A stretch of 46,804 nucleotides of DNA from a virus. Positions 18,038 to 32,319 of the stretch are shown here, piece after piece (within the stretch, counting starts at the first letter, position 1; each line of letters opens with the position of its first letter). A program made the position numbers and the translations under genes. The stretch spans positions 1 through 46,804 of the IMG/VR virus record IMGVR_UViG_3300045284_000122. The stretch is one strand, 5' to 3'. A model generated the notes under the pieces. That model did no database searches, had not been told where the DNA came from, and saw nothing but the letters and a program-made list of their open reading frames with translations.

Positions 18038-18466
18038 ATGAAACGCTCATGGTTCACGGAGCGCGATCAGGCAAGCGACTTCGGCGAAGGCTCTGAGGCA
18101 GCCCGCGCGAAGGCGATCGTGCTCGCGGAACGCTGCGACGCCGAACTGCTCGACTCGTTGCTTCAGATCGTCGTCTCCCTCCAGACGTTCGGAGGCACGG
18201 CGTTCATCGGCGTGGAGCGAAAGCGGTTCAACCGTTCAGGCCAGGAGGTGTCGCACAACGCCCCCGGCCAATACGTCACGACGGCGTACGTCCACAACTA
18301 CGACCACCAGCCGATGAAGGGCGTCCCGGAGGAACCGGACCTGAACCTCCAGGAAGCCGTCGCCCTGTACAGGTCCGAGATCCTGCAACCCGTCACCGAT
18401 CCCGAGGCGAACGGTGCTCCCGAACCCGTAGGGGCCGCTGAGGGACCGGATGCCGATCGGGACTGA
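18038..18466 (+). CDS. Hypothetical protein
   Basis: ATG preceded by TAGGAGGAAC; coding composition. Confidence 0.65.
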   Translation: MKRSWFTERDQASDFGEGSEAARAKAIVLAERCDAELLDSLLQIVVSLQTFGGTAFIGVERKRFNRSGQEVSHNAPGQYVTTAYVHNYDHQPMKGVPEEPDLNLQEAVALYRSEILQPVTDPEANGAPEPVGAAEGPDADRD

Positions 18467-20345
18467 GGAAGATCTCTCTCAGGAGGACCGCGACGTACTG
18501 AAGCGGGTCCGCGACGACAAAAAGCTCGCGGACGACTCCCGCAAGCCGCACGTCGACCAGTGGAACCGCTTCTACGGCCTTCACCGCAACTACCGCCAGT
18601 TGCGCCAGGCCCACTCCACGGCCAACGCCGAGGCTGATCGGGACGAGGTAATCGAGCAGGGAAAGCGCGAGTGGGGCGCCGAGTTGTTCATCCCCTTCGT
18701 CTACGCGACGGTCGAGACGGTCGTTCCCCGGGCGCTCCTCAACGACCCGGTGATGCAGATCAAGCCGCGGAACCCCAACTTCACGACCGACCAGGCGGAG
18801 GCGATCAAGGCCCTGTACGCGGAGCGCCAGGCCGAGATCGGCTACGAGATGATCCTCCAGCCGACAGCCCGCCGCGGCTTCAAGTACGGGCTCGGCGCCC
18901 AGAAGACCTTCTGGAATCGGAAGACCCGCGAGATCATGCGCCTGGAGCCTGGGATCTTCGGGCTCGGCACGGTGCAGCGAAAGCGGACCGAGGTGATCGA
19001 CGAGGGGCCGAGCGCCGAGGACATCGACATCTTCGACCTGTTCTGGGATCCGGTCGCCAAGAACGTCGATACCTGCGGCTTCATCATCCACCGCACCTGG
19101 CGCAACATGCGCTACGTCCGCCAGATGATCGAGTCGGGCGCCTGGACCCGCACCTACGACCAGTTCGACCTCAGCGCGATCGAGTCCTCAGCGCCGGCTC
19201 AGAACCGCGACTCGGTCTGGGCGGAGCGGATGAAGGCCGCTGGCGTCGCGACCGGGAACACCAACTCCCAGCAGGGAAAGCTCCACGAGGTCTGGGAGTA
19301 CCACGACGGCGAGATGGTTCACACGGTGCTCGACGGCAAGATCGTCGTCCGCTCGATCGAGAACCCCTTCTACCACCGCCAACTCCCGTTCCAGATCTTC
19401 CGCCCCACGCTCCAGGAGGGCGAGTTCGTCGGCATCGGTGAGATCGAGCCGATCGCCCACCTCCAGGCCGAGCTCAACACGCTTCGCTCCCAGCGCCGCG
19501 ACAACGCGACGCTCGTGCTCCAGAAGGCGTTCATCTACTCCGAGGGCCTCGTCGACCCCGACGATCTGGTCGTCGGCCCGGGGATGGGCATCCCGACGAT
19601 GGGCGCTCCCTCCGACGTGCTCCAGCCGCTGATCTTCGGCGAGATCCCCGCCTCCGGCTACCAAGAGGAGCAGGCGCTCAAGGCCGACTTCGAGTTGGCG
19701 AGCGGGATCTCCGAGGCGACGGCGGGCGCTGGCGGCGGCGACACCTCCCAGGACACGGCGACCGGCGTCCAGCTCGTGCAGGCGGCCGCCAACGTCCGCA
19801 TCCGCCTGAAGACGAAGAACCTCGAGCGAGAGATGCTCCGGCCCGCAGCCGCTCAGTGGAAGGAGCTCTACCGCCAGTTCCTGACCAACCCGAAGGACGT
19901 CCGCTACGACGACCCCACCTCCCCGACGGGCGTCAACTTCCTCCAGGTCAAGCCGAAGGACGTTCGCGCCGACTTCGACGTCATCCCGGCCGCCGGCTCC
20001 ACGGAGCCCGACAACGTCCCGCAAAAGCGAAACGACGCGCTCACCCTCTTCAATCAGGTGAACGGCAACCAGGATGTCGACGGGCGCCGGGCCCTCCTTT
20101 GGCTGCTCCAGCAGTTCGACATCCCCGACGCCGAGCTGTGGCTTGCGCCCGAGGCGCCGCAACTCGACGCCCAGGTCGTGCAGGAACTGCTCCTCTCGAC
20201 TGGCACGAAGCCCGAGCAGGTCACCCAGTTCCTTCAGGCCGCCATCCAGGGCACTCAGCAGATGCAGCTTCCGCCCGGTGAGCAGGCCGCGCCAGCGGCC
20301 CCGACGAACGGCGGGCAACCCGCCGCGCAAGGAGCCGCGAAATGA
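18450..20345 (+). CDS. Portal protein
   Basis: 631 aa, downstream of the terminase. The N-terminal region (...HVDQWNRFYGLHRNY...WGAELFIPFVYATVETVVPR) is typical of podovirus-type portals, and the C-terminus is acidic and flexible. Confidence 0.7.
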   Translation: MPIGTEEDLSQEDRDVLKRVRDDKKLADDSRKPHVDQWNRFYGLHRNYRQLRQAHSTANAEADRDEVIEQGKREWGAELFIPFVYATVETVVPRALLNDPVMQIKPRNPNFTTDQAEAIKALYAERQAEIGYEMILQPTARRGFKYGLGAQKTFWNRKTREIMRLEPGIFGLGTVQRKRTEVIDEGPSAEDIDIFDLFWDPVAKNVDTCGFIIHRTWRNMRYVRQMIESGAWTRTYDQFDLSAIESSAPAQNRDSVWAERMKAAGVATGNTNSQQGKLHEVWEYHDGEMVHTVLDGKIVVRSIENPFYHRQLPFQIFRPTLQEGEFVGIGEIEPIAHLQAELNTLRSQRRDNATLVLQKAFIYSEGLVDPDDLVVGPGMGIPTMGAPSDVLQPLIFGEIPASGYQEEQALKADFELASGISEATAGAGGGDTSQDTATGVQLVQAAANVRIRLKTKNLEREMLRPAAAQWKELYRQFLTNPKDVRYDDPTSPTGVNFLQVKPKDVRADFDVIPAAGSTEPDNVPQKRNDALTLFNQVNGNQDVDGRRALLWLLQQFDIPDAELWLAPEAPQLDAQVVQELLLSTGTKPEQVTQFLQAAIQGTQQMQLPPGEQAAPAAPTNGGQPAAQGAAK

Positions 20346-21316
20346 ACTTCACGCTTCGCAACAACACGACCTTCCCGGACGGCACCACGGTCGGCGTCTA
20401 CAACGCCTACGCCTTCCCGTTCGAGGGCTCCGGTCCGCCGCAGGCGACCCAGATCACCTCGGACGTGATGACGGACGGCGAAGCGGTCTTCTCGGGCCTC
20501 GACCCGGACACCACCTACACCGCGGCCGCCCAGATCGGCGGGGTCTGGAGGCGGACCAGCTTCCGCACCGACCCGGTCGGGCCATCACAGGGGAGCTTCG
20601 ACGCCTCCGACAACATCACCTTCGCCGGCGACGTCGGCTTCACGGGCGGGCTCGACCTGACGGGTGCCGACCTGCTCGTGCCGTTGGCGAGCCAGGCCGA
20701 CTTCGACGCCCATAAGAACGCGACGGCATCGGTACACGGCATACCGAATACGGCGGCCCTGCTCGACACGAGCAAGATCGGCGTCTCCATCGCCGCGCAG
20801 GGCGACTCCCGCTTCCCCTCGGCCGCCCAGCTCGCGGCGCTCGCCGGAACCGCCGGCACGCCGGGCGGCTCCAACCGGGTCGTCACCGACCAGGATCCTC
20901 GTCTCCCGATTGTCGCGATCGTCCAGGCACTCGCTGCCGCCATCGGAACCCCGGGCTCCGGGAACCCGTTCGTGCTCGACGACGACCCCCGCTTCACCTC
21001 GGCCACCGTTCGCTCAGTCGCCGACAACTACACGCTGGCCGACGGCGACGAGGGATGCTCGCTCGGCACCAACAACAACAACAACCCGAAGATCTGGACA
21101 GTGCCCCACTCGACCGTCTGGAACCCGATCATCGGGACAGTCGTCAAGGGACGCAACATGGGCTCTCAGCCGCTCTCGATCGTCGCTGGCACGACCGGCG
21201 GCACGCCGATCATCCGCTCCGATGGTGGGGTGCTCACCGTCTCGGACCAGTTCGCCGCGTTCTTCCTCGAGAAGATCGCCGCGAATACGTGGTTCCTGGG
21301 GGGGAACATCGGATGA
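20342..21316 (+). CDS. Fibre-like virion protein carrying the shared N-terminal FPxGTxVG module
   Basis: The N-terminus is homologous to those of 22438 and 26827. Repeated G..GS.N..V.D.DPR(L/F) motifs are typical of tail fibre proteins. Confidence 0.5.
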   Translation: MNFTLRNNTTFPDGTTVGVYNAYAFPFEGSGPPQATQITSDVMTDGEAVFSGLDPDTTYTAAAQIGGVWRRTSFRTDPVGPSQGSFDASDNITFAGDVGFTGGLDLTGADLLVPLASQADFDAHKNATASVHGIPNTAALLDTSKIGVSIAAQGDSRFPSAAQLAALAGTAGTPGGSNRVVTDQDPRLPIVAIVQALAAAIGTPGSGNPFVLDDDPRFTSATVRSVADNYTLADGDEGCSLGTNNNNNPKIWTVPHSTVWNPIIGTVVKGRNMGSQPLSIVAGTTGGTPIIRSDGGVLTVSDQFAAFFLEKIAANTWFLGGNIG

Positions 21317-22398
21317 GTCCCGTTCCGGCCGTCACCGTCGACGCAGCTCCGAAGGATGTCCCGCTTCGGTTCACCTACACCGGCGTCATGGAAATCGCCG
21401 GGTCGGCCCAGATCGACATAGCGACCCTGAAGCCGGGGATGATTCGCCTGCGCCGTGAGGAGTCGAACCCGATCGGCAACCCGGGAGCTCGCAACCCGGC
21501 TTCGACCATAGGAAGGACGAATCAGCTCATCGACGCAGGGATCGCCGTCTGCCCCTGCATCGAGACGGACAACTTCTCGAGCGTCGCCGCGTTCACCGCG
21601 TACCTCGAGGACTGGATCGCCGGCGTCGACGAGCCCCCCGAATTCTGGGAGTGCGGCAACGAGCCCGACTCCTATTGGCCGCCGGACGCCAGCGACCCGG
21701 ATTTCCCCGCTGACCTCAATCACCCCGACAACTGGAGCCCGACGGAGGTGGCGTTCTACCAGCAGAGCGTCCGCACCAAGTACCTCAAGTACATGACGGC
21801 GGCGAGCGACGTGCTCGACCCGCTCGGCCTCAAGCTCGTGCTCGCCGCCCAGATCAGCGGGAACAAATCAGCGGGCGGCCAGGAGAACGTGCTCGACGAC
21901 ATAGACGACGGGCTCCAGGGCTCCGACACCGATCAAGTGGATGCCCTCGCTATTCACCCCTACGCCCAGGAAGCTGACGACGTATACGACAGCGTCCAGG
22001 GCTATCGCAACAACATCGACTCGCACCCCGGTTTCAACGGGAAAGACGTCTGGGTTACAGAAGTGGGCTGGCCGGCGACCTACCGTCAGGACGGGTCCGG
22101 GTATCAGGATGGGACGCCCAACAACCCCGACGACTGGAACAACCAGCCGTCGAATCACCTCCACGTCAACCGGATAATCACGACCGCGCAGCAGTCGGGG
22201 AAGCTCAAGGCGTGCTTCGACTTGCTCACCATTCACCGCTTCTCCCTCAAGCTGGCCGCAGTGATTTGGTTCGCCTATCACGACTACGGGATCCCGAACG
22301 GCACTTGGGATCGCCATTGTGGGGTCCTCGACTTCGGCGAAGGCAAGCGGACCTCCTACAACACGCTCAAGAATTACCAGCGGACGTTCAGCCGATGA
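21313..22398 (+). CDS. Clan GH-A (GH5-like) glycoside hydrolase, candidate polysaccharide depolymerase
   Basis: FWECGNEPD gives the NEP acid/base motif (21658-21666). VWVTEVGWP gives the TE nucleophile motif (E at 22060-22062). There is no signal peptide. Confidence 0.65.
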   Translation: MSPVPAVTVDAAPKDVPLRFTYTGVMEIAGSAQIDIATLKPGMIRLRREESNPIGNPGARNPASTIGRTNQLIDAGIAVCPCIETDNFSSVAAFTAYLEDWIAGVDEPPEFWECGNEPDSYWPPDASDPDFPADLNHPDNWSPTEVAFYQQSVRTKYLKYMTAASDVLDPLGLKLVLAAQISGNKSAGGQENVLDDIDDGLQGSDTDQVDALAIHPYAQEADDVYDSVQGYRNNIDSHPGFNGKDVWVTEVGWPATYRQDGSGYQDGTPNNPDDWNNQPSNHLHVNRIITTAQQSGKLKACFDLLTIHRFSLKLAAVIWFAYHDYGIPNGTWDRHCGVLDFGEGKRTSYNTLKNYQRTFSR

Positions 22399-22437
22399 TG
22401 ACCGCGAGCGCCAACACAATGCCGGGAGGCTGACCCC

Positions 22438-25400
22438 ATGAGCGCGTTCAACCTCAAGCGCGTCGACGTCTTCCCGAACGGGACCTCCGTCGGCGCCTAT
22501 AAGAAGAGCAACTGGCCGGGCCCGGGGCAGCCCACCGGCGCCCCGCTCGGCTCGCCAGATGAGTCGCAGACGATGACCGCTGGCACTGCCGCCTTCGTCG
22601 CGCTCGGCTTCGACGTCTCCTACTGGGCAGTCGCCCAGGTGAACGGCGTCTACCGCTATATCGAGTTCATCGCCGGAGAGGACGGCGGCGGGGGAGGCGG
22701 GGGAGCGACGCTCGACACCGACCCGGATATGACGGCCAACAGCGACGCGGTCGCGCCGTCCCAGGCGGCCGTCGTTGCCTACGTCGCCTCTCACGGTGGC
22801 GATCCGCCGGCAGACGCCGCAACGGCCGTCAAGGGCGTTACCAAGCTCTCCACGGCGCCGGCGAGCGCGGCCAACCCGATCGCCGTCGGGACCAACGATC
22901 CGCGGCTGACGACGAACCCGGAGACGACCGACAACAAGGCGAACGGAGCTCTCGCCGACGACACGACGAAGTACCCGACGTCGCACGCTGTCAAGGGCTA
23001 TGTCGATACCGCGGTCGCCGGCAAGCAGGACTCAAGCTCGATCCTGACGACGCTCGCCGGCGCGAGCTCGGCCAACGCGACGGCCGTCGTCAACTTCACG
23101 GCCTTCGTGCGAACCCTGCTCGACGACGCCGATGCGACGACGGCCCGCTCCACCCTGCTCGCCGAGTACACCGGCAACAAGGACAACGGCGCCTTGGCCG
23201 ACGACACGACCAAGTACCCGACCTCTCACGCGGTCAAGACCTACGCCGACGCGGCCGTCGCGGTTCGCGATAACACCTTCAACAGTGGGCTCGCCCCGGT
23301 AATCACGGCTTACGGGCACTCGATCATGTACACGGGGAGCTCAGACAACACGCGAGGCATCGGGCACCGCGTCGCCTCCGTGCTCCACTCCGACGTGCAG
23401 AACATGGCGCACGGGTCGGGCATCCTGACGATCAACTCAGGCGGCGTCGGAATCTCGGGCGCCGGCGGCTGGGATCAGTGCTACAGGCGTACCAAGGGCA
23501 TCCCCGGGGCGAGTACGACCTGGAACGTCGGCCCGCCACGCCGGGGCCCGACGCTGATCTTCTTCGGCGTCAACGACATAGGGCTGATGCCCGGCTCGAC
23601 CGGCTCGAAGACGGTCGTCGACTTCCTCCAGTACCAACACGCGCTCAGAGCGGTCATCTCCCGCTTCCGCGCCTCCAACGTCTACGAGGACACCGACGCC
23701 GCAATCACCTTCCCCGACGGCGGCTACACGGCGGTCGACGACGGCGTCACGACGCAGCCGCTCCGAGCTTCCAACGGCACGCATTCCTACTGCACGGCGA
23801 CTGCCAAGAAGGCTCGCTTCACGACTCCCTCCAACTTCCAGGGTGGCACCGTGGCGATGGCTTTCCTATGCGACTCGCTTGGGGCCGGCGCGAGTTGGGA
23901 CATAAAGATCGATGGCGGGGCGACGGTCGCATCGGTCGACGCTCGAGCCGTGAACATCGTCACCGCGTCGAATCTGACCCCGACCGGCGAGCGGACGTCT
24001 GGCTCGGCGCTGCTCCAGCACGTTTCGTCTCTTACGGGTGTCCTCGTCGGCCAACTGCTCTCGGGCACTGGCATTCCGCTCGGCGCGCGAGTCGCGTCGA
24101 TCGACAGCTCGAACGGCGCCAACCTGAAAATCACCATGACGCTCAACGCGACGTCGGGCACGGCGACCTCGACGAACCTCACGATCAGCCCCAACTTTGA
24201 CCTTCCCGTGATCGCGCGAGTCACGGTCGCCTCCGGGTCGCACACGGTCGACGCGAACCCGACCGCGCTCGCCGGCGGCCGCGGCATCTTCGACTGCGCC
24301 TGGATCGAATCCGAGAACCCGCCCTACGTCGGCGTCTTCGAGCAGTACGACCCAATGGCCTCCTACAACCTGCACGACGTCGGGATTCTGAACACGGCGA
24401 GCGCCAACGTGGTCGCGGAGTTCAGCTCGGCCGTCGAGGTGATCGCGACGCAGGACGTGATCGCCGGCGACGCGAACCTGACCTCCGACGGCGTCATTCA
24501 CCTCAACGACCGGGGCGCTGCCGTGGTCGCCAAGCGCGCGATCGACCGCATCCTCACCTTCGGCTTCAGCCGCGACCAGCAAGCACGGATGGCGCACAAC
24601 TTCCCCTACCTCACCCGGCACCCCTCCGACTCAGCGCGCAACTACCTCCAGCCGGACCTTCCGAACGTCACGCCGCTGACCATTCAGCACTCCGCCTATC
24701 CGGACGCCCAGACGGCGAACCTGCTCACGTTCAGGGATATCGCCGGCACGCAAATCTCGGCGATCCTGGCCGACGGCTCGATCGTGCTCGGCACCGATAC
24801 GACCCTCTATCGCTCGGCCGCCAACGCGCTCAAGACCGACGGCTCATTCAGTGCGCTAGGCGGGATTACGGCTGCTTCGACCGACATCGGGACGGGCGCC
24901 GGCGCAGGGATCATTTCCGGCCAGGGGCTCACCAACTACGTCGCGATCGGCTACAAGGCCGCGTTCACTGCGGCGCCGGGGTTCTTCGTCGGCGATGCGA
25001 GCACCAACGCCGTTGATACCAACCTCTACCGCTCGGCAGTGAGCGAGTGGACGACGGACGACGCGCTCAAGGTGGCGCTCGACCTCACCGTGCGCTCAGG
25101 CTCCGCGTCGACGGCGCAGGCGCTCATCGGGACGATTGGGCCCAGCGCGGAGGCAGGAGTCAAGCTCGGGGGCGATACGCGCTGGTATCGCTCCGCCGCC
25201 GACACGATGGCGACGGACGATTACGTTGCGATTGCCGCGCCGGGCGTCGGAGCCCCCGCGCTCACGGTGACGACCGCCGGGATCAACAACGAAATCGGCC
25301 TCGCCGTGGTCGGCAACGGCACCGGCCACACGACCCAGTTCCTCCAGACGACGAACGTCGAGGCGCTCGACGCCGCCCTGGCCGTCTACAGCGACACGGC

Positions 25401-26025
25401 CGCGGCCAACCTGATCTTCAAGATTCTCGGCACCGGCGGGCGCCATCAGTGGGCGGACGGCGCTGGCGGAGCGGTCGATACCTACCTGGATCGGGCCGGG
25501 GCGAACATCCTCGGCGTCAACGCCGGCGGCGCTGCCTCTAAGAAGGCGACTCTGGGCGGCGCGATCTTCGATCACTTCGCCGACGTCGGCAACGTCGGCA
25601 CCGGAGAGGACGACCTCTATTCGGACTCGATCCCGGCGAGCACGCTCGGGACCAACGGCGCCAAGCTCACCTTTGTCTACCAGGGAAACACGGCCGCCCA
25701 CGCGACCAATACCCGGACCTTCAAGATGTACTTCGCCGGGACCCAAATCTTCACCACGACGGCGTTCGCGACCAGCGCCATCAACGCCTGGCGCATCTTC
25801 GGCGAGATTACGCGGGTGTCCGCCACGGTCGTTAGATACTCAGTGGGCTTCATGCGCGCGTCCGCGTCTGCCGCGTCCGCCGGCCAGCTACAGCAGGGCG
25901 AGCTCACCGGGCTAACGCTCTCCGGCGCCAACACCATGAAAATCACCGGCGAGATAAGCGCCGGCTCCAACAACGACATACTCGCCCAATCGGGGACGGT
26001 CTGGTACTCGCCGGCCGCCGTATAG
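22438..26025 (+). CDS. Large fibre or spike protein (1195 aa): shared N-terminal module, poly-Gly hinge, duplicated fibre repeat, SGNH/GDSL-type esterase domain and a C-terminal repeat region
   Basis: FPNGTSVGAY N-terminus; EDGGGGGG hinge; two copies of NK.NGALADDTTKYPTSHAVK.Y.D.AVA. SGNH blocks are ITAYGHSIMYTG (I), IFFGVNDIG (III) and DGVIHLNDRGAAVVA (V). The C-terminus has recurring LYRSAA..L.TD motifs. Confidence 0.7.
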   Translation: MSAFNLKRVDVFPNGTSVGAYKKSNWPGPGQPTGAPLGSPDESQTMTAGTAAFVALGFDVSYWAVAQVNGVYRYIEFIAGEDGGGGGGGATLDTDPDMTANSDAVAPSQAAVVAYVASHGGDPPADAATAVKGVTKLSTAPASAANPIAVGTNDPRLTTNPETTDNKANGALADDTTKYPTSHAVKGYVDTAVAGKQDSSSILTTLAGASSANATAVVNFTAFVRTLLDDADATTARSTLLAEYTGNKDNGALADDTTKYPTSHAVKTYADAAVAVRDNTFNSGLAPVITAYGHSIMYTGSSDNTRGIGHRVASVLHSDVQNMAHGSGILTINSGGVGISGAGGWDQCYRRTKGIPGASTTWNVGPPRRGPTLIFFGVNDIGLMPGSTGSKTVVDFLQYQHALRAVISRFRASNVYEDTDAAITFPDGGYTAVDDGVTTQPLRASNGTHSYCTATAKKARFTTPSNFQGGTVAMAFLCDSLGAGASWDIKIDGGATVASVDARAVNIVTASNLTPTGERTSGSALLQHVSSLTGVLVGQLLSGTGIPLGARVASIDSSNGANLKITMTLNATSGTATSTNLTISPNFDLPVIARVTVASGSHTVDANPTALAGGRGIFDCAWIESENPPYVGVFEQYDPMASYNLHDVGILNTASANVVAEFSSAVEVIATQDVIAGDANLTSDGVIHLNDRGAAVVAKRAIDRILTFGFSRDQQARMAHNFPYLTRHPSDSARNYLQPDLPNVTPLTIQHSAYPDAQTANLLTFRDIAGTQISAILADGSIVLGTDTTLYRSAANALKTDGSFSALGGITAASTDIGTGAGAGIISGQGLTNYVAIGYKAAFTAAPGFFVGDASTNAVDTNLYRSAVSEWTTDDALKVALDLTVRSGSASTAQALIGTIGPSAEAGVKLGGDTRWYRSAADTMATDDYVAIAAPGVGAPALTVTTAGINNEIGLAVVGNGTGHTTQFLQTTNVEALDAALAVYSDTAAANLIFKILGTGGRHQWADGAGGAVDTYLDRAGANILGVNAGGAASKKATLGGAIFDHFADVGNVGTGEDDLYSDSIPASTLGTNGAKLTFVYQGNTAAHATNTRTFKMYFAGTQIFTTTAFATSAINAWRIFGEITRVSATVVRYSVGFMRASASAASAGQLQQGELTGLTLSGANTMKITGEISAGSNNDILAQSGTVWYSPAAV
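22933..23268 (+). repeat. Intragenic duplication of a ~90-nt fibre repeat (copies begin at 22933 and 23176, 243 nt apart)
   Basis: NKANGALADDTTKYPTSHAVKGYVDTAVA compared with NKDNGALADDTTKYPTSHAVKTYADAAVA. Confidence 0.85.
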
Positions 26026-26035
26026 AAAGGACGCC

Positions 26036-26206
26036 ATGCCCAAAACAGTGAGAGTCACGTTCGACGTCGAGCTTCCCGACGACGACACCGCGGACGAGCG
26101 GCGCCAGGGGCTCGAGGACTTCATCAACAACGGGCTCCATGTCGCCGCCGCCGCGTTCGGCGGTAGCGTCGCTAAGAAGGCGGCGGCCAAAGAGGTGAAG
26201 AAGTGA
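26036..26206 (+). CDS. Small hypothetical protein (56 aa)
   Basis: GAAAGGA RBS and high GC3; below the ORF-track cutoff. Confidence 0.55.
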   Translation: MPKTVRVTFDVELPDDDTADERRQGLEDFINNGLHVAAAAFGGSVAKKAAAKEVKK

Positions 26207-26658
26207 AGGACACGGAACTCAGCGAGAAGACGATCGACGAGGGCGTGCTCGTCGCGGAACTCGCCGCCTGCCGCGAGAGCCACGAGACGGTGCTCCGGCT
26301 CGAGGCGAACCAGCGCCAGATCGAAGACGGGATCAAGCAGGCAAAGCTCGTCCACGAGAACCAGCTCGGCAGGGCGGGGATGGCCGCGCAGTTACTCGGC
26401 TACGAGTCGCTCGAGGCGGCCGCACAGGCGTTCGACGTGGCGGCGCAGGCCGCACAGGCAACAGAAGGAGGAGGCCCAAATGTTCAAAACGAAAAGTCGC
26501 CGAACCGCGCGCAAAGACGCAAAGCCGGCAAGGCGAAGCCCAAAACGCGCCCCCGTCGTGCTCGAGGCGCATCCGTTCGCGCCCGGCCAAACGGTGCAGG
26601 TCCATCCGGAGTGGGCGGTCGGGATCGAAAAGAACGAGCAGAGAGCGCCGGCTCCTAA
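26203..26658 (+). CDS. Hypothetical protein. The helical N-terminal two-thirds look coding; the Arg/Lys-rich tail overlaps the next gene.
   Basis: GTGA overlap start. The stop lies 179 nt inside 26480..26818. Confidence 0.45.
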   Translation: MKDTELSEKTIDEGVLVAELAACRESHETVLRLEANQRQIEDGIKQAKLVHENQLGRAGMAAQLLGYESLEAAAQAFDVAAQAAQATEGGGPNVQNEKSPNRAQRRKAGKAKPKTRPRRARGASVRARPNGAGPSGVGGRDRKERAESAGS

Positions 26659-26818
26659 GCCGATCGCGACGGTGAAGGTGGACAAGAACGGCACGCTCAG
26701 CTTCAAGAACCTCGACAGCGGCCGCTACGTCGTCTGCGCCGAGCTGGAAGAAGTCCAACACGCCCCGCACTCCCAGCCGTACCCGATCTGGAAGTACGTG
26801 GCGCTGAGCGTCAAGTAG
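26480..26818 (+). CDS. Hypothetical protein
   Basis: Very strong RBS GAAGGAGGAGG before ATG 26480. Confidence 0.65.
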   Translation: MFKTKSRRTARKDAKPARRSPKRAPVVLEAHPFAPGQTVQVHPEWAVGIEKNEQRAPAPKPIATVKVDKNGTLSFKNLDSGRYVVCAELEEVQHAPHSQPYPIWKYVALSVK

Positions 26819-26826
26819 GAGGAGCG

Positions 26827-27396
26827 ATGCCGACGAAAACAGTTCACGCGCCCAACTTCCCGGTCGGGACGTCTGTGAAGGCGTTCGGCTTTGAGGCGAC
26901 TCGGGTCGAGCGCGAGGAAGGCCGGGTGCCATTCGCGCCGATGGCCGCCGACGATGGCGTGATCGACGCCGATCACAACGTCGACATCACGGCGGCGGCG
27001 GGCGCCTACGCCCTGCTCGGCGTGGTCGACGAGGTGCAGAGCGTCAAGATCGACGCGACCGCCGGTCAGTTCAAGCTCACGTTCAGCGGCCAGCAGACCG
27101 CCAACATCGCCTTCAACGCGGCGGCGTCGGCGGTCCAGACCGCGCTCGAGGCGCTCTCGAACATCGACCCGGGTGACGTCTCGGTGAGCGGCGGGCCGGG
27201 CGACTCCGGCGGCACGACGCCCTACCTCGTCACCTTCTCGGGCCAGTACGCCGGGACCAACGTCGCGGCGCTCACGGGCGCCAACGGCACCACCCCGCTC
27301 TCCGGTGGCGGGGCGGCGATCACGATCACCACGTCAACCCAAGGGGCCGAGGGCACCTCGGGCGAGCTCCTATGGCTCGCGTTCACGATCGATTGA
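26827..27396 (+). CDS. Small virion protein with the shared N-terminal module plus a beta-rich domain. It may be a decoration or adaptor protein.
   Basis: FPVGTSVKAF N-terminus and a C-terminal GQFKLTFSGQQTANIAFNAAASAVQTALEALSNI...YLVTFSGQYAGTNV motif. It lies immediately before the scaffold and capsid genes. Confidence 0.5.
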   Translation: MPTKTVHAPNFPVGTSVKAFGFEATRVEREEGRVPFAPMAADDGVIDADHNVDITAAAGAYALLGVVDEVQSVKIDATAGQFKLTFSGQQTANIAFNAAASAVQTALEALSNIDPGDVSVSGGPGDSGGTTPYLVTFSGQYAGTNVAALTGANGTTPLSGGGAAITITTSTQGAEGTSGELLWLAFTID

Positions 27397-27633
27397 TTCC
27401 CACCTCCCGCACTCAGCCCTATCGGGCATCGGCCAGGCGCCGGCACACGCTGGCGGCGCAGGCGATGACGCGCGGGCGACCGGCCCTGATGCAGAACCCC
27501 GCGCACGCCCGCGCACGGGCGAACCGGCGGCGGCGTCGCTCCCGCGGCAATCGCGGGCGCCAACCCACCCCACTTCATCGCGTGCTCGGGGTTCGGGCTG
27601 CCGTCGGTGGAGGGCGGTAGGCTTCCACGCAAC

Positions 27634-27942
27634 ATGGCTGAGGAGAAACGCGAGATCCCGGAGGCGATGCACCTGGTCGGAGTCTGGACAGGCTCTGAGG
27701 CGATCGAAGCCGGTGACCAAGTGCGAGCCATGATGGAAACCCCGGGATGGAAGCGGTTCCTTGAGTCGATCGAGATTCGGCTCCGCTCAGAGCAGCGCAC
27801 GATGATGGTGTCGCCGCCGCGGACTCCCGAGGACAACGAGCGCACGATCGGCCGTTGGAACGGCCTCGCCTCGGTCCCCAAGCTGGCCGAGGGCATCGTG
27901 CGAAACGCAGAGAAGGCCGCGGCTGAGGCCCGCGCCGCATAG
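27634..27942 (+). CDS. Hypothetical head-module protein
   Basis: ATG 27634 inside ORF 27607..27942; the start is uncertain because no well-placed RBS is present. Confidence 0.55.
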   Translation: MAEEKREIPEAMHLVGVWTGSEAIEAGDQVRAMMETPGWKRFLESIEIRLRSEQRTMMVSPPRTPEDNERTIGRWNGLASVPKLAEGIVRNAEKAAAEARAA

Positions 27943-27951
27943 GAGGAATCC

Positions 27952-28722
27952 GTGGAAGCAAGCCCCGCTCAAGCCCCCGCCCAGCCCGAGCAGCCGGTAG
28001 AGCCCGCAGCGCCGGAGGCCGCGCCCCCGACGCCCCCCACGGGCCAGCCCGATCCAGCCCAGCCCCCCGAGGGCGCCGAGCAGCAGCCGGATGTCGGCCG
28101 GGAGCTCGCCGCGCTTCGCGAGACGACGCAACGGATCGAGCAGGAGATGGGACTCGGCCAGGAGCAGGCGCCGGGCGACCTCTACGAGAGCCTGACCGCG
28201 CCGCTCGAGAACCCCGAGATGCAGGGCCAGCCCGGACAGCCGGGGATGGAACAGGGCCAGCAGTTCGTCGACGAGCAGGGCAACCCGGTCGACCAGTACG
28301 GGAACCCGCTCCCGCCCGAGCAGCAGTTCGCCAACGAGGAGCACCAGCTCCGCCAACTCTTCCGCGAGGAGGCCGCGAACCTCCTCGTCCCCCAACTTCG
28401 CCGCCAGGAGCTGAACTCCTACGCGGAGAAGCACCCTGACATCCGCGACCCCGAGGTGTTCGAGGCTGTCACGGACAAGCTCGCCCCGATTGCAGAGGCT
28501 TATGGGCGCGAGGAATACACCAATCCACTCTTGGTGGATCTCGCATACAAAGCTGTGAAGGCGGAGGCTGCGGCCGCCGCCGAAACCCCGGCCGAGGCCC
28601 CGGGTCAGGGACCGACTCTCGAAACGGGCGCTGGACCAAGCGCGCCGCAAGGAGAGCCCGATCCCGCTGACCGTTACAAGCAGGCGGTCTTCGACCCGAA
28701 CAAGCCACAGAGCGTGTTCTGA
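27952..28722 (+). CDS. Scaffolding protein
   Basis: Acidic, low-complexity, helical protein rich in Q, E and P, directly upstream of the major capsid gene. RBS TAGGAGGAA. Confidence 0.65.
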   Translation: MEASPAQAPAQPEQPVEPAAPEAAPPTPPTGQPDPAQPPEGAEQQPDVGRELAALRETTQRIEQEMGLGQEQAPGDLYESLTAPLENPEMQGQPGQPGMEQGQQFVDEQGNPVDQYGNPLPPEQQFANEEHQLRQLFREEAANLLVPQLRRQELNSYAEKHPDIRDPEVFEAVTDKLAPIAEAYGREEYTNPLLVDLAYKAVKAEAAAAAETPAEAPGQGPTLETGAGPSAPQGEPDPADRYKQAVFDPNKPQSVF

Positions 28723-28751: not shown

Positions 28752-29918
28752 ATGGCTGTCGTTACAGGACAACGACGCACGGACAACATTGCCTCGGTCC
28801 AGCGGTACATCGACGTCTCGCGGGAGATCATGCTCCTGGAGCCCGATGCCGCACCGCTGACGGTGATCCTGAGCCAGCTCAACAAGAGCAACGCGAAGGA
28901 CTCGCTGTTCAGCTGGACGAACGACGAACTGGAATCGCGCTTCGACGCCGTCAACAACGGCGCCGGCTACTCATCGGGCGCGACCTCAGTCGTCGTCGAT
29001 ACGGGCGAGTTGTTCGCCGCGGAGGACGTCGTCAAGGTCCCCCGCACCGGCGAGGTGATCTCGGTCACCTCGATCGCAGCCAACACGCTCACCGTGGAGC
29101 GGGGAGTCGGCGGCACGACCGCCGCGGCCCTGGTCGACAACGACCCGCTCTACATCATCGGAACGGCCGCAGAAGAGGGCGACACCTCCCAGGAGGCCCG
29201 CTCTCAGAACCCGGTCAAGGTCGACAACTACACGCAGATCTTCAAGCACTCGATCAAGGCATCGGGTACTGCGCTGTCGTCGTCGAACCAGACCAGCCCG
29301 CACGACTGGGTGCATCAGCACCGCAAGTCGATGATCGAGCACCTCAAGGACATCGAGCTCGCGTTGATCCTTGGTGCGCCCGGCACGCGGACTGGCGCCG
29401 ATGGAGGGCCTCGCCGGACGACCGGCGGCGTCCTCAATTTCGCCACGTCCAACAACCAGGACGCCGGCGGAACGCTCACCGAGGCCGAGTTCGAGCAGTT
29501 CATGCGGACGCTCTTCCGCTACGGCGCGAAGACCAAGACGCTGTTCGCATCTCGCCTCGTCGCGTCGGTGCTCAACCAGTACTCCGCGGGCAAGCTCAAC
29601 ACCTTCGTCGGTGCTGAGACGTACGGAGTGACGGTGAGCAAGTTCATGTCGATCCACGGAACCCTGAACCTGATCGTCCACGACCTTCTCGAAGGTGCCG
29701 TGTACGGCGGGTACGCGATTGCTCTCGACCTCCGCTCCGGAGGGAAGGAGTACAAGTACCTGAACGGTGACGGGCCCGGCGGGTCGCGCGACACGCACGT
29801 CGACCAGAACGTGCAGGTCCCGGACCGCGACGGTCAGCAGGATCAGATCCTGACCGAGTGTGGCCTGAAGCACGGCCTGCCGAAGACGGATGGCGTGCTG
29901 ACCGGCGTTACCGGATAA
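28752..29918 (+). CDS. Major capsid protein (HK97 fold, SU10/DUF5309-like)
   Basis: 388 aa with a GAAGGAG RBS. The N-terminal pattern ...LLEPDAAPLTVILSQL.K..AKDSLFSWTNDEL is typical of that capsid family (from memory). The position after the scaffold gene fits. Confidence 0.8.
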   Translation: MAVVTGQRRTDNIASVQRYIDVSREIMLLEPDAAPLTVILSQLNKSNAKDSLFSWTNDELESRFDAVNNGAGYSSGATSVVVDTGELFAAEDVVKVPRTGEVISVTSIAANTLTVERGVGGTTAAALVDNDPLYIIGTAAEEGDTSQEARSQNPVKVDNYTQIFKHSIKASGTALSSSNQTSPHDWVHQHRKSMIEHLKDIELALILGAPGTRTGADGGPRRTTGGVLNFATSNNQDAGGTLTEAEFEQFMRTLFRYGAKTKTLFASRLVASVLNQYSAGKLNTFVGAETYGVTVSKFMSIHGTLNLIVHDLLEGAVYGGYAIALDLRSGGKEYKYLNGDGPGGSRDTHVDQNVQVPDRDGQQDQILTECGLKHGLPKTDGVLTGVTG

Positions 29919-29923
29919 CCACC

Positions 29924-30449: not shown

Positions 30450-31070
30450 ATGCCTACTGCAACTGCCCAACAGACCACCGTGTTCGTGTCGCCGTGTGGG
30501 AATCTTCGACTCACCTGGAAGCAGCCCGACTTCGAGAAGCGGGACATCAACGACCGGGTGATCCGCGAGGGAAAGAGGGGCGTGGCGGTCGAGTTCGAGG
30601 GCGGCCGGGCCGAGATCCGCGGCGAGACGGTCACCGAAGAGCGCACCGACCGCAGACCGCTCCTCGACCAAGCCAACCGCGTCGTGCTGGACCCCGAAAC
30701 CGGGGCGCCCGTCTACAACGAGGAGCCGGTCGAGGTAGAGGTGAGCCGCACCTACGTCAACGAGCACATGCTGGAGGACGTCGACTCCGAGGAGCTGCTC
30801 GCCTGGCTGCGTAAGCACTGGCTCTTCAACCGCCCCGGCAACAACGGCTTCTGGGAGGAGGGCGCTTCGCCCGACGAACCCAAGCCCACGACTTCAGATC
30901 AGATGACGGCGATCTCGCGGGCAGCGGCCATGCGAGACGTCGGCGCGGTCCGAAAGGTGCTTCTCACCGAGGAGGAGACGCACAATCGGCTGCCCATCCT
31001 GAACTCAGCTCGCGACACGATCGCGATGCTCGAGGAGATGGAGGACAAGCCGGATGCCCCTCCGGACTGA
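30450..31070 (+). CDS. Hypothetical virion protein
   Basis: TAGGAGATCC RBS before ATG 30450. Confidence 0.6.
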   Translation: MPTATAQQTTVFVSPCGNLRLTWKQPDFEKRDINDRVIREGKRGVAVEFEGGRAEIRGETVTEERTDRRPLLDQANRVVLDPETGAPVYNEEPVEVEVSRTYVNEHMLEDVDSEELLAWLRKHWLFNRPGNNGFWEEGASPDEPKPTTSDQMTAISRAAAMRDVGAVRKVLLTEEETHNRLPILNSARDTIAMLEEMEDKPDAPPD

Positions 31071-32319
31071 TTTCACCAACGACACCCCGGCGCGCGACAC
31101 TCATCCCGCCGCTCACAACGACGCCAATGAGAAGGTCAACGAACTCGACGACCGGGTAACCGCCGTCGAGGACGGAGGGGGAGGAGGCGGAGGCGGCGAC
31201 CCGACCGGCGCTGCCGGCGGAGTCCTGGCGGGGACCTACCCCAACCCGGACTTCGCTCAGGCGATGGCGACGCTGGCCGACCTTCTCGCCGCCGATGGGC
31301 TGCCGGTGCTCGGCGGAGTCACGCCGCCGTCGAACTCGGACGGGCTCAACGGCTCGTGGTGGTTCGACACCTCGACGGGCAAGCTCTACGGACCGAAGGC
31401 CGGCGGTATCTGGGACCTCGATAACCCGATCCTGCTCGGCGGCGTCGCGGTCCTCTCCGGCGGGCTTACCCCGACTGACGACGTCGGCGGGGACGGCGAT
31501 CTCTTCCTGAAGACCTCAACGGCCGACCTGTTCGTGAAGGAGACGGGCTCGTGGGGGCCGCCGATGTCGCTCAAGGGCGACCAGGGCGACCCCGGCGTGG
31601 GGCTCAACAACCTGGGCGCGTGGTCGAGCGTCACGGCCTACGCGGTCGACGACCTCGTGATCCGCGGTGGCTCGAGCTGGTACGCGGTCGCGACGTCGAC
31701 CAACATCGACCCGATCACCGACGACGGCTCGCACTGGAAGGTGTTCGCCGCGAAGGGCAACGTCGGCGCCGCCGGCTCGGGCTTCCTAGAGGGCCTCGTT
31801 GTCCCGGTCGCCAACAACAGCCCATCCCCGACGGCGACCGTCACCAACAGCGCCAACACGGCCCGCTTCGTCGCCATGAACCCGGTCCCCTTCGACGGAC
31901 TCTTGGACGCGATTGCCCTCTACATCGGCATTTCGTCGGGCAACATCAAGCTCCTGGTCTTCGACACGGGCCAGGCGACGCCCGGCTCCTACACGCAGCT
32001 CTATTGCTCGGCTGGGACTGCGGCCGGAGCCGCCGGTGACTGGCAGACCTTCTCGGGGATCGGGCTCGACGTCGAGAGCGGCCAGCGGCTCGTCTTCGGA
32101 GTCGTGCCGGATAACGCGACGGTCACCTTCGGCCGGCTCGACGGCGTCGTGTCGAACAACGCTTCGATCCTGCCGGCCGCGTTCGCGCCGACCGGGACCC
32201 GGGTGAAGCTCGGGGCGCAGAAGGGCGGCTTCACCTATGCCTCGCCGGCGTCGATCATGAGCGAAGCCGATATGGGGGCGACGACGAGCATCCTGGCGAT
32301 CATCGGCCAGGTGAGTTAG
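31054..32319 (+). CDS. Tail fibre or receptor-binding protein
   Basis: N-terminal HPAAHNDANEKVNELD fibre motif, a G8 hinge, a short collagen-like KGDQGDPG, and a CBM5/12-like W..VTAYAVDDLVIRGGSSWYAV......DGSHW. Confidence 0.65.
   Translation: MPLRTDFTNDTPARDTHPAAHNDANEKVNELDDRVTAVEDGGGGGGGGDPTGAAGGVLAGTYPNPDFAQAMATLADLLAADGLPVLGGVTPPSNSDGLNGSWWFDTSTGKLYGPKAGGIWDLDNPILLGGVAVLSGGLTPTDDVGGDGDLFLKTSTADLFVKETGSWGPPMSLKGDQGDPGVGLNNLGAWSSVTAYAVDDLVIRGGSSWYAVATSTNIDPITDDGSHWKVFAAKGNVGAAGSGFLEGLVVPVANNSPSPTATVTNSANTARFVAMNPVPFDGLLDAIALYIGISSGNIKLLVFDTGQATPGSYTQLYCSAGTAAGAAGDWQTFSGIGLDVESGQRLVFGVVPDNATVTFGRLDGVVSNNASILPAAFAPTGTRVKLGAQKGGFTYASPASIMSEADMGATTSILAIIGQVS

What the first reader, a model, noticed from the sequence alone, without database searches (positions are those of the whole stretch)
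20342..27396. Three proteins between portal and scaffold share an N-terminal FP-x-GT-x-V module fused to different C-terminal parts, alongside a free glycosidase
The first ~75-80 residues of the proteins from 20342, 22438 and 26827 align. The motifs are FPDGTTVGVY / FPNGTSVGAY / FPVGTSVKAF, followed by GEAVFSGLDPDTTYTAAAQIGGVWRRTSF / GTAAFVALGFDVSYWAVAQVNGVYRYIEF / DITAAAGAYALLGVV. The regions after this module are unrelated. They are a fibre-like 324-aa protein, a 1195-aa fibre with an SGNH esterase, and a 189-aa beta-rich protein placed like a decoration protein. Between the first two lies a clan-A glycoside hydrolase (NEP and TE motifs). A shared N-terminal module on proteins with different C-termini is how branched multi-spike podoviruses dock several depolymerases on one adaptor. 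Here, however, the block sits in the head-assembly region, between portal and scaffold. A second, conventional fibre (31054) sits in the tail module. That raises the possibility of capsid- or portal-vertex-attached enzymatic fibres. The proteins from 22438 and 31054 also share an ED-poly-Gly hinge (G6 and G8).
Basis: partly seen in the sequence, partly recalled or inferred. Interest (0 to 1): 0.7.

Follow-up and report, generated by a model that had tools for sequence, protein, structure and literature searches.

The report
Shared anchor module on phage fibres
An uncultured temperate short-tailed phage carries four surface proteins built on one small, previously undescribed beta-sandwich domain that probably fastens them to the virus particle, showing how this phage group swaps its host-recognition parts; whether they sit on the tail or the head is still open.

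Summary
gp324 (20342) and gp1195 (22438) share an ~80-aa N-terminal domain (39% identity, E=5e-14). gp189 (26827) also has it, but this shows only with profiles (hhalign E about 1e-12). In gp189 the domain is interrupted by a ~110-aa display domain.

The domain is a confident FN3/Ig-like beta-sandwich. It has no Pfam, PHROG or NCBIfam model and no specific structural relative. It has no match in 50,697 cultured phage genomes, yet 738 protein clusters in metagenomes carry it. It almost always starts at residue 1 and is fused to fibres, beta-helix lyases, sialidase-like or small domains.

Eight related SU10-like phage genomes have a fixed cassette of four module paralogues after the portal. In other relatives, module genes sit next to the adaptor or elsewhere, so gene position says little about virion position.

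Best reading: a shared virion-anchor domain for a hypervariable host-recognition cassette. The fibres most likely dock on the tail, because they are the only fibre candidates in the relatives. Capsid docking is not excluded (about 0.25). This is a new variant of a known design principle.

The parts
18450..20345 (+). Portal protein (SU10 type). It forms the upstream border of the cassette. Its stop overlaps the gp324 start (ATGA).
   Evidence: PF23899 E=5e-22; phrog_1216; sequence.
20342..20575 (+). Anchor module of gp324 (residues 1-78). It is a divergent fibre-class copy.
   Evidence: BLASTP E=5e-14 to gp1195; 150-sequence HMM E=1e-26; at most 44% identity to any relative's module.
20576..21316 (+). 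gp324 payload. It is fibre-like, has two DPR[LF] repeat motifs, and is an orphan.
   Evidence: No homologue other than itself in 5.8 billion proteins; motifs; no Pfam or PHROG match.
21313..22398 (+). Free glycoside hydrolase (clan A-like) without the module. It occupies the variable 'x' slot of the cassette.
   Evidence: PF11790 21.1 bits vs cut-off 21; NEP and TE motifs; PDB 8akp_A E=0.0085; no module hit; no phage homologue.
22438..22680 (+). Anchor module of gp1195 (residues 1-81), class A.
   Evidence: HMM E=3e-34; clusters with the third-position genes of relatives; AF2 pLDDT 88.1 six-strand sandwich.
22681..26025 (+). gp1195 payload. In order: G7 hinge, tail-fibre repeat (KGVTKLS..NDPRL), SGNH-like esterase (about residues 291-690, with an insertion), LYRSAxxxLKTD repeats, and a C-terminal beta-rich tip.
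   Evidence: repeat shared with other long fibre-like proteins; PF13472 E=2.9e-5, below cut-off; motifs; repeats shared with L008 gp385.
26480..26818 (+). gp112. It has a Lys/Arg-rich tail (residues 1-30, 11 K/R) followed by the module (residues about 31-112). This is class 2.
   Evidence: HMM E=2.7e-6; clusters with 8 relatives' second-position genes, all with basic tails; weak prealbumin-like Pfam hits.
26827..27396 (+). gp189, class 1. Module strands are at residues 1-66 and 183-188. A Bxb1-type display domain is inserted at about residues 67-177 (nt 27025-27357).
   Evidence: hhalign E=5e-12 to 7e-14; AF2 pLDDT 90.7; insert matches Bxb1 gp23 (E=1.5e-35), Bxb1 MCP, Patience gp22 and Bxb1 tail tube; 176 homologues.
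27607..28722 (+). Conserved 111-aa protein plus scaffold. Together they form the downstream border of the cassette.
   Evidence: Homologues directly follow the portal region in L001 and follow the cassette in all relatives.
28752..29918 (+). Major capsid protein (SU10 type). It is a candidate docking partner under the capsid hypothesis.
   Evidence: PF17236 E=7e-48.
31054..33482 (+). Conventional fibre gp421 (with a G8 hinge) plus p387. Neither carries the module. This pair is an extra, window-specific insertion between the post-MCP gene and the adaptor.
   Evidence: phrog_5073 E=3e-10; no homologue of gp421 in any related locus; p387 is the payload of an L011 class-B module protein, E=8e-25.
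33482..36030 (+). Adaptor (SU10 type) and nozzle/tail hub. They are candidate docking partners under the tail hypothesis.
   Evidence: PF24175 E=4e-17; nozzle homologues at 1e-33 to 1e-131 in relatives; a 3-Trp loop is present in 4 relatives' nozzles but not in the window's.

Best explanation
The block 20342-27396 is the phage's variable host-recognition cassette. Four of its five proteins are attached to the virion through paralogous copies of one ~75-80-residue FN3/Ig-like beta-sandwich. I call this the anchor module.

Proposed mechanism:
- The module's first strand starts at residue 2. The module docks on a conserved virion component and hands over, through a GE[DN]/poly-Gly hinge, to an exchangeable payload.
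- gp324 carries a fibre.
- gp1195 carries a long fibre with an SGNH-type esterase and a distal binding tip.
- gp189 carries a Bxb1-type surface display domain, inserted in the module's last hairpin.
- gp112 carries a polycationic tail.
- The glycosidase has no anchor. It is either a partner of the neighbouring fibre or a soluble enzyme.
- New payloads are acquired by recombination at the module/hinge junction.

Shown: the homology, the fold class, the N-terminal position, the payload diversity, and the conserved four-paralogue cassette in relatives.

Inferred:
- The module is an anchor (about 0.7).
- The fibre-class copies dock on the SU10-like tail at the adaptor or nozzle, as the counterparts of SU10's two fibre sets (about 0.5-0.6, given that the module is an anchor).
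- Classes 1 and 2 share only about 23-25% identity with the fibre classes and may use a different site.
For: 1. Homology.
2. The family is large and N-terminal. There are 738 clusters at E<=1e-3 and 160 at E<=1e-10. Proteins are 84-1195 aa. The domain starts at residue <=5 in 143 of 148.
3. Payloads are typical of receptor-binding proteins. They include Pect-lyase and Pel9A beta-helices, BNR, collagen, fibre repeats and esterase.
4. Eight distinct contigs (L009-L012, L014-L017) show portal, class 1, class 2, class A, (x), class B, p111, scaffold, MCP. Clustering goes by class, not by genome.
5. L007 and L008 have fibre-class modules but no class 1 or 2. So the fibres dock on a core virion protein, not on gp189 or gp112.
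6. In the relatives, adaptor and nozzle genes are adjacent. No other fibre-like gene is seen from MCP to 3-4 genes past the nozzle. SU10 itself carries two fibre sets, on adaptor and nozzle (PMC9509320).
7. Four relatives' nozzles have a W-x4-W-x4-W loop. It resembles the 3-Trp fibre-dock loops of SU10 and Pa223. In L007 the only fibre candidate for that loop is the module protein.
8. The p387 payload lies next to a conventional tail fibre in the window. In L011 it is fused to the module.
9. Module genes also occur beside the adaptor gene (L008).
Against: - No direct evidence of virion incorporation or of any docking partner.
- Foldseek and PDB profile searches give only generic FN3/CBM matches (best E 0.14, 0.10 and 0.034). 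There is no resemblance to the SU10 or Pa223 fibre N-termini, the P22 head-binding domain, or T7 gp17.
- Four or more species sharing one fold would compete for the few tail sites unless the classes have distinct sites. A capsid lattice would offer many sites.
- The window's nozzle, and those of L008 and L014, lack the 3-Trp loop although they have module proteins.
- gp189's insert occurs on capsid proteins (Bxb1 MCP, Patience gp22) as well as on tail proteins.
- Ig/FN3-like domains on phages are often accessory adhesion domains rather than anchors (my own knowledge).
Confidence: 0.5

Rival explanations
1. Capsid-lattice docking. The module binds the SU10-type major capsid protein at capsomer centres or 3-fold sites. 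The head would then display enzymatic fibres, a decoration protein (gp189) and a polycationic protein (gp112). The tail would use the nozzle, needle or gp421 for final recognition.
For: - The cassette lies inside the head-morphogenesis operon and is translationally coupled to the portal.
- Four paralogous carriers per genome fit a many-site lattice better than 6-12 tail sites.
- gp189's architecture (a beta domain plus the same display domain) parallels the Patience gp22 minor capsid protein and the Bxb1 MCP C-terminal domain.
- Pa223 has an SU10-like adaptor and hub and carries an RBP-like trimeric spike on capsid 3-folds.
- SU10 gp10 is predicted to be Ig-like, similar to the phi29 head-fibre base.
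- The window has a separate conventional fibre, gp421.
Against: - Canonical relatives have no other fibre genes, so the phage would lack tail fibres.
- Module genes also lie next to the adaptor (L008) or outside the structural modules (L094, L095).
- The Patience gp22 N-terminal domain is not homologous to the module.
- No fold match to known decoration proteins or head-fibre bases.
- I know of no described case of a depolymerase-type enzyme on a capsid.
Confidence: 0.25
2. Neck or collar docking. The module binds the exposed portal/adaptor ring (12 sites) and forms a collar with whisker-like fibres. This would resemble T4 fibritin or the lactococcal neck passage structure.
For: - The class-1 gene follows the portal in all canonical relatives, abutting or overlapping its stop codon in L010-L012.
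- In the window, gp324 overlaps the portal stop.
- Twelve-fold rings could hold several species.
Against: - Gene adjacency is weak evidence.
- In the window the class-1 gene is 6.5 kb from the portal, because the cassette order is reversed.
- Trimeric fibres on a 12-fold ring need a symmetry solution that has not been shown.
Confidence: 0.1
3. The module is not an anchor. It is an accessory carbohydrate-binding or adhesion Ig/FN3-like domain that happens to sit at the N-terminus. Attachment would use another element.
For: - The best fold matches are FN3 and AMPK-type CBM domains.
- There are weak prealbumin-like Pfam hits for gp112.
- Ig-like domains are common accessory modules on phage proteins (my own knowledge).
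Against: - All matches are non-significant (E>=0.034).
- The domain begins at Met1 in 143 of 148 members and precedes the hinge, where phage fibres are virion-proximal.
- Short members (84-120 aa) consist of little else.
- No alternative N-terminal anchor exists in gp324 or gp1195.
Confidence: 0.1
4. The resemblance is chance or compositional: Gly/Ala/Thr-rich high-GC proteins that align by accident.
For: gp189 is not significant in pairwise BLASTP.
Against: - Pairwise E=5e-14.
- Profile E=1e-26 to 1e-34.
- hhalign E about 1e-12.
- 738 database members.
- Confident, congruent AF2 strand patterns in both models.
Confidence: 0.01

Closest known systems
P22-type tailspike N-terminal head-binding domain (Pfam PF09008), shared by P22, HK620, Det7 and other phages
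   Same: It is a small N-terminal beta-sandwich docking domain. A linker follows it, and interchangeable C-terminal receptor-binding or receptor-destroying domains follow the linker. Exchange occurs by recombination at the junction.
   Different: There is no sequence or fold match. Here there are four paralogous classes per genome, including non-fibre payloads (a display domain and a polycationic tail). The genes sit between portal and scaffold.
T7 gp17 N-terminal domain and the SP6/K1-5/KP32-type anchor-branching systems of multi-spike podoviruses
   Same: Several depolymerases or fibres are mounted on one short tail through conserved N-terminal elements.
   Different: Those systems use one anchor plus branching domains or short docking peptides. 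Here every carrier has its own full copy of the domain. No PF03906 hit.
SU10 (Kuravirus) tail: long fibres on the adaptor, short fibres on the nozzle's 3-Trp dock loop (PMC9509320)
   Same: The portal, MCP and adaptor families are the same. There are two fibre classes per genome. A Trp-triplet loop is present in several relatives' nozzles.
   Different: SU10 fibres dock by extended N-terminal strands and coiled coils, and are encoded between adaptor and nozzle. Here the fibres begin with a globular sandwich and are encoded after the portal. The window's nozzle lacks the Trp triplet.
Pa223 (Bruynoghevirus) capsid spike gp52; phi29 gp8.5 and P68 head fibres
   Same: These are trimeric, RBP-like fibres anchored on capsids of short-tailed phages by an N-terminal element. 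Pa223 has an SU10-like adaptor and hub.
   Different: The Pa223 anchor is a 40-residue extended arm, not a sandwich. None of these fibres carries enzymes. No fold match was found.
Bxb1-type display domain (Bxb1 gp23 tail-tip cage, MCP C-terminus, tail tube gp19; Patience gp22 minor capsid protein; Nocardia phage NTR1 major tail protein)
   Same: The gp189 insert is a true homologue (E=1.5e-35, 7e-10, 2e-4 and 4e-4; Foldseek 1e-6; 59% identity to NTR1). It is carried as an add-on to a virion-bound domain.
   Different: Here it is inserted into the last hairpin of the anchor module of a podovirus protein. It is not appended to an MCP, a tail tube or a decoration-protein core.
Phage G7C gp63.1-type SGNH esterase tailspikes (my own knowledge)
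   Same: A virion-borne SGNH esterase sits on a podovirus receptor-binding protein.
   Different: No detectable sequence relation was tested or found. In gp1195 the esterase is embedded in a 1195-aa fibre and is supported only below the Pfam cut-off.

Membership tests
Anchor-module family defined here (150-sequence HMM) | Significant match to the module profile | tested here: met
   gp1195 E=3e-34. gp324 E=1e-26. gp112 E=2.7e-6. gp189 scores E=0.1 by itself, but its family matches at hhalign E=5e-12 to 7e-14, and family members reach up to 54 bits.
Anchor-module family defined here | Module at the extreme N-terminus, followed by a hinge and payload | tested here: met
   Met for gp324 and gp1195. 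There are two variants. gp112 has a basic tail before the module. gp189 has its payload inserted before the last strand.
Anchor-module family defined here | Six-strand beta-sandwich fold | tested here: met
   AF2 pLDDT 88.1 for gp1195 residues 1-92. The same strand order appears in gp189, pLDDT 90.7. No coordinate superposition was possible.
P22-type tailspike head-binding domain (PF09008) / T7 tail-fibre N-terminal domain (PF03906) | Pfam match or fold match to the solved domains | tested here: not met
   No Pfam hit at E<=0.1. Not among the 50 matches listed by Foldseek against PDB, and no PDB match at E<=0.001. The PDB profile search returns only FN3 at E>=0.034.
SU10-like (Kuravirus-type) podovirus virion | SU10-type portal, major capsid protein and adaptor | tested here: met
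   PF23899 E=5e-22 and PF17236 E=7e-48. PF24175 E=4e-17.
SU10-like (Kuravirus-type) podovirus virion | Fibre genes between adaptor and nozzle; fibres dock by extended N-termini | tested here: not met
   Adaptor and nozzle are adjacent in the window and in the relatives. The fibres begin with a globular sandwich.
SGNH/GDSL hydrolase (gp1195 residues about 291-690) | Pfam PF13472 above the gathering score; catalytic blocks I, III and V | tested here: inconclusive
   25.1 bits against a cut-off of 32.9, E=2.9e-5, covering only the first 117 of 178 profile positions. GHS, GxND and DxxH are present. Block V lies about 300 residues downstream, which implies an insertion.
Clan GH-A glycoside hydrolase (21313-22398) | Pfam match; NEP acid/base and TE nucleophile motifs | tested here: inconclusive
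   PF11790 gives 21.1 bits against a cut-off of 21, and only profile positions 134-175 match. The NEP and TE motifs are present. The single PDB hit has E=0.0085.
Bxb1-type display domain (gp189 insert) | Sequence and fold homology to the Bxb1 gp23, MCP and gp19 domains | tested here: met
   hmmsearch E=1.5e-35, 7e-10 and 4e-4. Foldseek E=1.4e-6.
Capsid decoration protein / head fibre | Bound to the capsid lattice in the virion | not testable with these tools
   This needs cryo-EM or mass spectrometry.
Tail fibre / tailspike | Bound to adaptor or nozzle in the virion; required for adsorption | not testable with these tools
   The support is indirect only: payload types, the absence of other fibre genes in relatives, and the Trp loop in some nozzles.

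The most novel reading that the evidence does not exclude
The anchor module binds the capsid lattice. This phage clade would then coat its head with a programmable set of surface proteins: enzymatic fibres (esterase, lyase, sialidase-like), a glycan-display domain and a polycationic tail. Each of the four paralogous module classes would recognise a different quasi-equivalent capsid site. As far as I know, that would be the first case of depolymerase-type enzymes mounted on a phage head, and a natural capsid-display system.
Probability: 0.25. Interest if true: 0.8.

Novelty: new variant of a known kind. Interest (0 to 1): 0.55.

Why it matters
The finding defines a large domain family that no library describes. 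It has 738 clusters at 50% identity, no Pfam, PHROG or NCBIfam model, no solved relative, and no cultured phage.

The family appears to be the common attachment device for receptor-binding and surface proteins in a clade of uncultured temperate SU10-like podoviruses, probably of Actinobacteria.

Practical value:
- It gives a marker for finding host-range cassettes in metagenomic phages.
- It gives a defined junction (GE[DN]/Gly hinge) for swapping receptor-binding payloads.
- It gives a clear structural question: which virion protein reads four paralogous anchors.

If the anchors sit on the capsid, this would be a new type of enzymatically armed head.

Tried and rejected
- Pairwise BLASTP and a 2-sequence HMM did not link gp189 or gp112 to the module. 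Only the 150-sequence profile and profile-profile comparison did.
- Full-length searches with gp324 and gp1195 found only themselves plus a generic fibre repeat.
- Megablast of 12 kb against cultured phages gave nothing. tblastn of the module consensus, GH, p387 and the PG-binding protein against 50,697 phage records also gave nothing.
- Foldseek of the module against PDB and BFVD gave only generic FN3/CBM-type matches. I therefore rejected membership in the P22 head-binding, T7 gp17, SU10 fibre, phi29 gp8.5 and epsilon15 gp10 types.
- The Patience gp22 N-terminal domain, tested as a possible capsid-binding relative of the module, is not related.
- Host identification failed. Two genome-contig scans with the MCP gave nothing useful, only one 2.9-kb MAG fragment. 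The module alignments were too variable for pattern scans.
- I tried to assign gp324 to class B. It is equidistant from classes A and B, so I left it unassigned.
- The 'x' proteins of the cassettes are not homologous to each other or to the GH. I therefore rejected the idea of a conserved chaperone or enzyme slot.
- The Trp-loop correlation with module presence is not strict.

Full report
**What the window is.** The 46.8-kb window is a complete JGI metagenome contig. It has about 66% G+C and almost all likely genes lie on the + strand. It encodes a tyrosine integrase (5802-6920), a DnaB helicase and a PD-(D/E)XK nuclease, so it is a temperate phage. The structural genes are of the SU10 (Kuravirus) type:
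- portal 18450-20345 (PF23899, E=5e-22)
- major capsid protein 28752-29918 (PF17236, E=7e-48)
- adaptor 33482-34165 (PF24175, E=4e-17)
- a 622-aa nozzle homologue next to the adaptor

No cultured phage is close. Megablast finds nothing, and the best MCP match is 31% identical (Roseobacter phage CRP-810).

**Check of the observation.**
- The ORFs exist as described.
- The N-termini of gp324 and gp1195 are clearly homologous: 29/74 identical, E=5e-14.
- gp189 is not detectably similar pairwise or with a two-sequence HMM.
- I searched the two-sequence profile against 1.84 billion representative proteins. It found 738 proteins at E<=1e-3 and 160 at E<=1e-10.
- A 150-sequence HMM built from the best hits scores as follows among 677 six-frame fragments of the window: gp1195 at 3e-34, gp324 at 1e-26, the frame of 26480-26818 (gp112) at 2.7e-6, and gp189 fourth at E=0.1.
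- gp189 has 176 database homologues. The ~190-aa full-length ones are 46-64% identical.
Individual family members reach 54 bits against the module HMM.
- So the three-protein observation is confirmed, and a fourth carrier (gp112) is added.

**Minor corrections and enzyme claims.**
- The glycine runs are G7 and G8.
- The SGNH assignment rests on a sub-threshold Pfam hit (PF13472, 25.1 bits vs 32.9, E=2.9e-5) plus the GHS, GxND and DxxH blocks.
- The glycosidase sits exactly at the Pfam threshold (PF11790, 21.1 vs 21) and has the NEP and TE motifs.

**What the module is.**
- AlphaFold2 with a 55-sequence alignment gives a confident six-strand beta-sandwich for gp1195 residues 1-92 (pLDDT 88.1, pTM 0.76).
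- Foldseek finds only generic FN3, Ig and AMPK-CBM matches in PDB (best E=0.14, none <=0.001) and in BFVD (best E=0.10).
- A profile search of PDB sequences gives only fibronectin at E>=0.034.
- Pfam, PHROGs and NCBIfam have no model for it.
- A tblastn of the consensus against 50,697 cultured phage genomes finds nothing.
- In the database family the domain begins at residue <=5 in 143 of 148 top members. Protein lengths range from 84 to 1195 aa.
- The C-terminal parts include pectate-lyase-type beta-helices, BNR/sialidase-like regions, collagen and fibre repeats, and many small beta domains.
- The module ends in a conserved [AP]GE[DN] motif, often followed by Gly/Ser-rich linkers.

**gp189 and gp112.**
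- The AF2 model of gp189 (pLDDT 90.7) has the module's first five strands at residues 3-65, then a separate domain (67-173), then a final strand at 183-188.
- Deleting the insert from all 28 family members extends the module-HMM alignment from profile position 70 to 78 and raises the median score from 33 to 38.6 bits. The payload is therefore inserted in the module's last hairpin.
- The insert is homologous to four known proteins: the repeated domain of the mycobacteriophage Bxb1 gp23 tail-tip cage (E=1.5e-35), the C-terminal domain of the Bxb1 major capsid protein (7e-10), the Patience gp22 minor capsid protein (2e-4), and the Bxb1 tail tube gp19 (4e-4) (Foldseek).
- It is also 59% identical to part of the Nocardia phage NTR1 major tail protein.
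- It is thus a surface display domain used on both heads and tails of actinobacteriophages. This also points to an actinobacterial host.
- The Patience gp22 N-terminal domain is not related to the module.
- gp112 and its relatives (99-138 aa) have a Lys/Ala/Pro-rich basic tail followed by the module.

**Comparative genomics.**
- In the 36%-identical relative L001, the portal is followed by a small acidic protein, then the homologue of 27607-27942, then scaffold and MCP. Caulobacter phage Kuura is similarly compact. The 7-kb block is therefore an insertion in a hot-spot.
- CRP-810 has an unrelated 1252-aa fibre at the same place.
- Contigs carrying family members were fetched and scanned with the module HMM and with the window's structural proteins.
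- Eight distinct contigs (L009-L012, L014-L017) share this order: TerL, portal, class 1 (gp189 type), class 2 (gp112 type), class A module-X, an optional unrelated protein x, class B module-X, p111, scaffold, MCP, post-MCP protein, adaptor, nozzle.
- Average-linkage clustering groups the modules by class, not by genome. Mean within-class identity is 57% for class 1 and 49% for class 2, against 23-25% between these classes.
- In the window, gp1195 is class A, gp112 is class 2 and gp189 is class 1. gp324 is a divergent fibre-class copy (<=44% to any).
- The window's gene order is the exact reverse of the canonical order, with all genes still on the + strand.
- More distant relatives have fewer module proteins. 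L007 has one (a 1074-aa putative beta-helix protein). L008 has two, one after the portal and one between MCP and adaptor, next to a Pel9A-like beta-helix protein. L004 has three.
- In L094 and L095, module proteins lie away from recognisable structural genes.
- The x proteins are unrelated to each other and to the glycosidase.
- p387 of the window sits next to the conventional fibre gp421. It is homologous (E=8e-25) to the payload of the class-B module protein of L011.
- gp421 has no homologue in any related locus.

**Mechanism.**
- The strict N-terminal position, the conserved junction, the exchangeable RBP-type payloads and the hypervariability of the cassette match the design of modular tailspikes and fibres, where a conserved N-terminal domain docks on the virion.
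- I therefore read the module as a virion anchor (about 0.7).
- L007 and L008 have fibre-class modules without classes 1 and 2. The fibres must therefore bind a core virion protein rather than gp189 or gp112.

**Where the module docks is not shown.** Evidence for the tail:
- SU10-type tails carry two fibre sets, on adaptor and nozzle (PMC9509320). In this clade, adaptor and nozzle genes are adjacent, and no other fibre-like genes are found from MCP to several genes beyond the nozzle.
- The two variable classes A and B match the two fibre sets in number.
- Four relatives' nozzles carry a W-x4-W-x4-W loop. It recalls the three-tryptophan fibre-dock loops of SU10 and Pa223.
- Module genes can lie beside the adaptor gene.
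- One payload alternates between module fusion and a tail-fibre neighbourhood.

Evidence for the capsid:
- Four paralogous carriers fit a many-site lattice.
- The cassette lies in the head operon.
- gp189 parallels the Patience minor capsid protein in architecture.
- Pa223, a phage with an SU10-like adaptor and hub, carries an RBP-like spike on capsid 3-folds.
- The window's nozzle, and those of L008 and L014, lack the Trp triplet.

My estimates are: tail docking of the fibre classes about 0.5, capsid about 0.25, neck or collar about 0.1, and a non-anchor adhesion domain about 0.1.

**Comparison and novelty.** The principle of a shared N-terminal anchor with swappable payloads is known from the P22-type head-binding domain, T7 gp17 and multi-spike podoviruses. 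Membership in those families was tested and not met. The new elements are:
- an undescribed domain family restricted so far to uncultured phages
- its expansion into four conserved paralogous classes per genome
- payloads that include an inserted display domain and a polycationic tail
- its location as a cassette between portal and scaffold

I rate this a new variant of a known kind, with interest 0.55. The capsid reading, if true, would deserve about 0.8.

**Limits.**
- The host is unknown.
- Only the top 150 of the 738 family members were listed, and contexts were fetched for 8 of them.
- The Trp-loop argument rests on analogy.

Noticed in passing
window 20342-27396 versus L009-L017: The window's cassette order is fibre-class, x, class A, class 2, class 1. 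This is the exact reverse of the canonical order in eight relatives (class 1, class 2, class A, x, class B). All genes are still on the + strand, so it is a gene-order reversal without inversion.
   Followed up: partly
window 26203-26658 (+), overlapping gp112 start at 26480: A GTG-started ORF lies in another frame. It has very high GC3 (0.9 or more) from about 26220 to 26400 and a coiled-coil-like product. Its reading frame then runs 178 nt into gp112. It may be a separate small gene, or a frameshift or assembly issue. Some relatives have small proteins after the portal, for example the 90-aa coiled-coil protein in CRP-810.
   Followed up: partly
L004 about 20800-20900, L007, L011, L015 nozzle C-terminal regions; window 34162-36030: The nozzle proteins of four relatives carry a W-x4-W-x4-W loop (for example L007 W523, W528, W533). 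It resembles the 3-Trp fibre-dock loops of SU10 and Pa223. In the window the loop is replaced by a Gly/Pro-rich stretch. It is missing in L008 and L014.
   Followed up: partly
window 29858-30442 (+): An HNH plus AP2-domain homing-endonuclease-like ORF lies directly after, and slightly overlaps, the major capsid gene. HNH_3 genes occupy the same position in relatives L004 and L093. Another sits between adaptor and nozzle in L004.
   Followed up: no
window 32319-33482 (+) and L011 12581-13996: p387 has no family annotation. Its GTG start overlaps the stop of fibre gp421. It is homologous (26% identity, E=8e-25) to the payload of a class-B module protein in L011. This is a direct example of one payload used with two different attachment contexts.
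   Followed up: yes
L003 (Roseobacter phage CRP-810) 1724-5482: A cultured SU10-like relative also has a large (1252-aa) annotated tail fibre, together with OmpA-family and lysozyme genes, between portal and scaffold. Its N-terminus is unrelated. The portal-scaffold gap is therefore a general insertion hot-spot in this capsid lineage.
   Followed up: partly
window 5802-6920 and 45472-46161: There is a tyrosine integrase with a weak N-terminal AP2-like hit. There is also a 229-aa protein with a C-terminal PG_binding_1 domain, likely the endolysin, which has no match in cultured phages. Relatives L007 and L093 also encode integrases, and L011 encodes an Rpf-type transglycosylase (PF06737). This is consistent with temperate phages of Actinobacteria.
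   Followed up: partly
window 26480-26569; L009 9644-9790, L010, L011, L012: Class-2 proteins all begin with a 30-70-residue Lys/Ala/Pro-rich, histone-H1-like tail. It is unexplained whether this tail binds packaged DNA, anionic cell-wall polymers or another virion protein.
   Followed up: no
L004 9276-10004: The non-module 'x' protein of L004 (242 aa) looks by eye like an alpha/beta-hydrolase (LSGGT motif). No Pfam match was found. The cassettes often include one enzyme without an anchor, as with the glycosidase in the window.
   Followed up: partly
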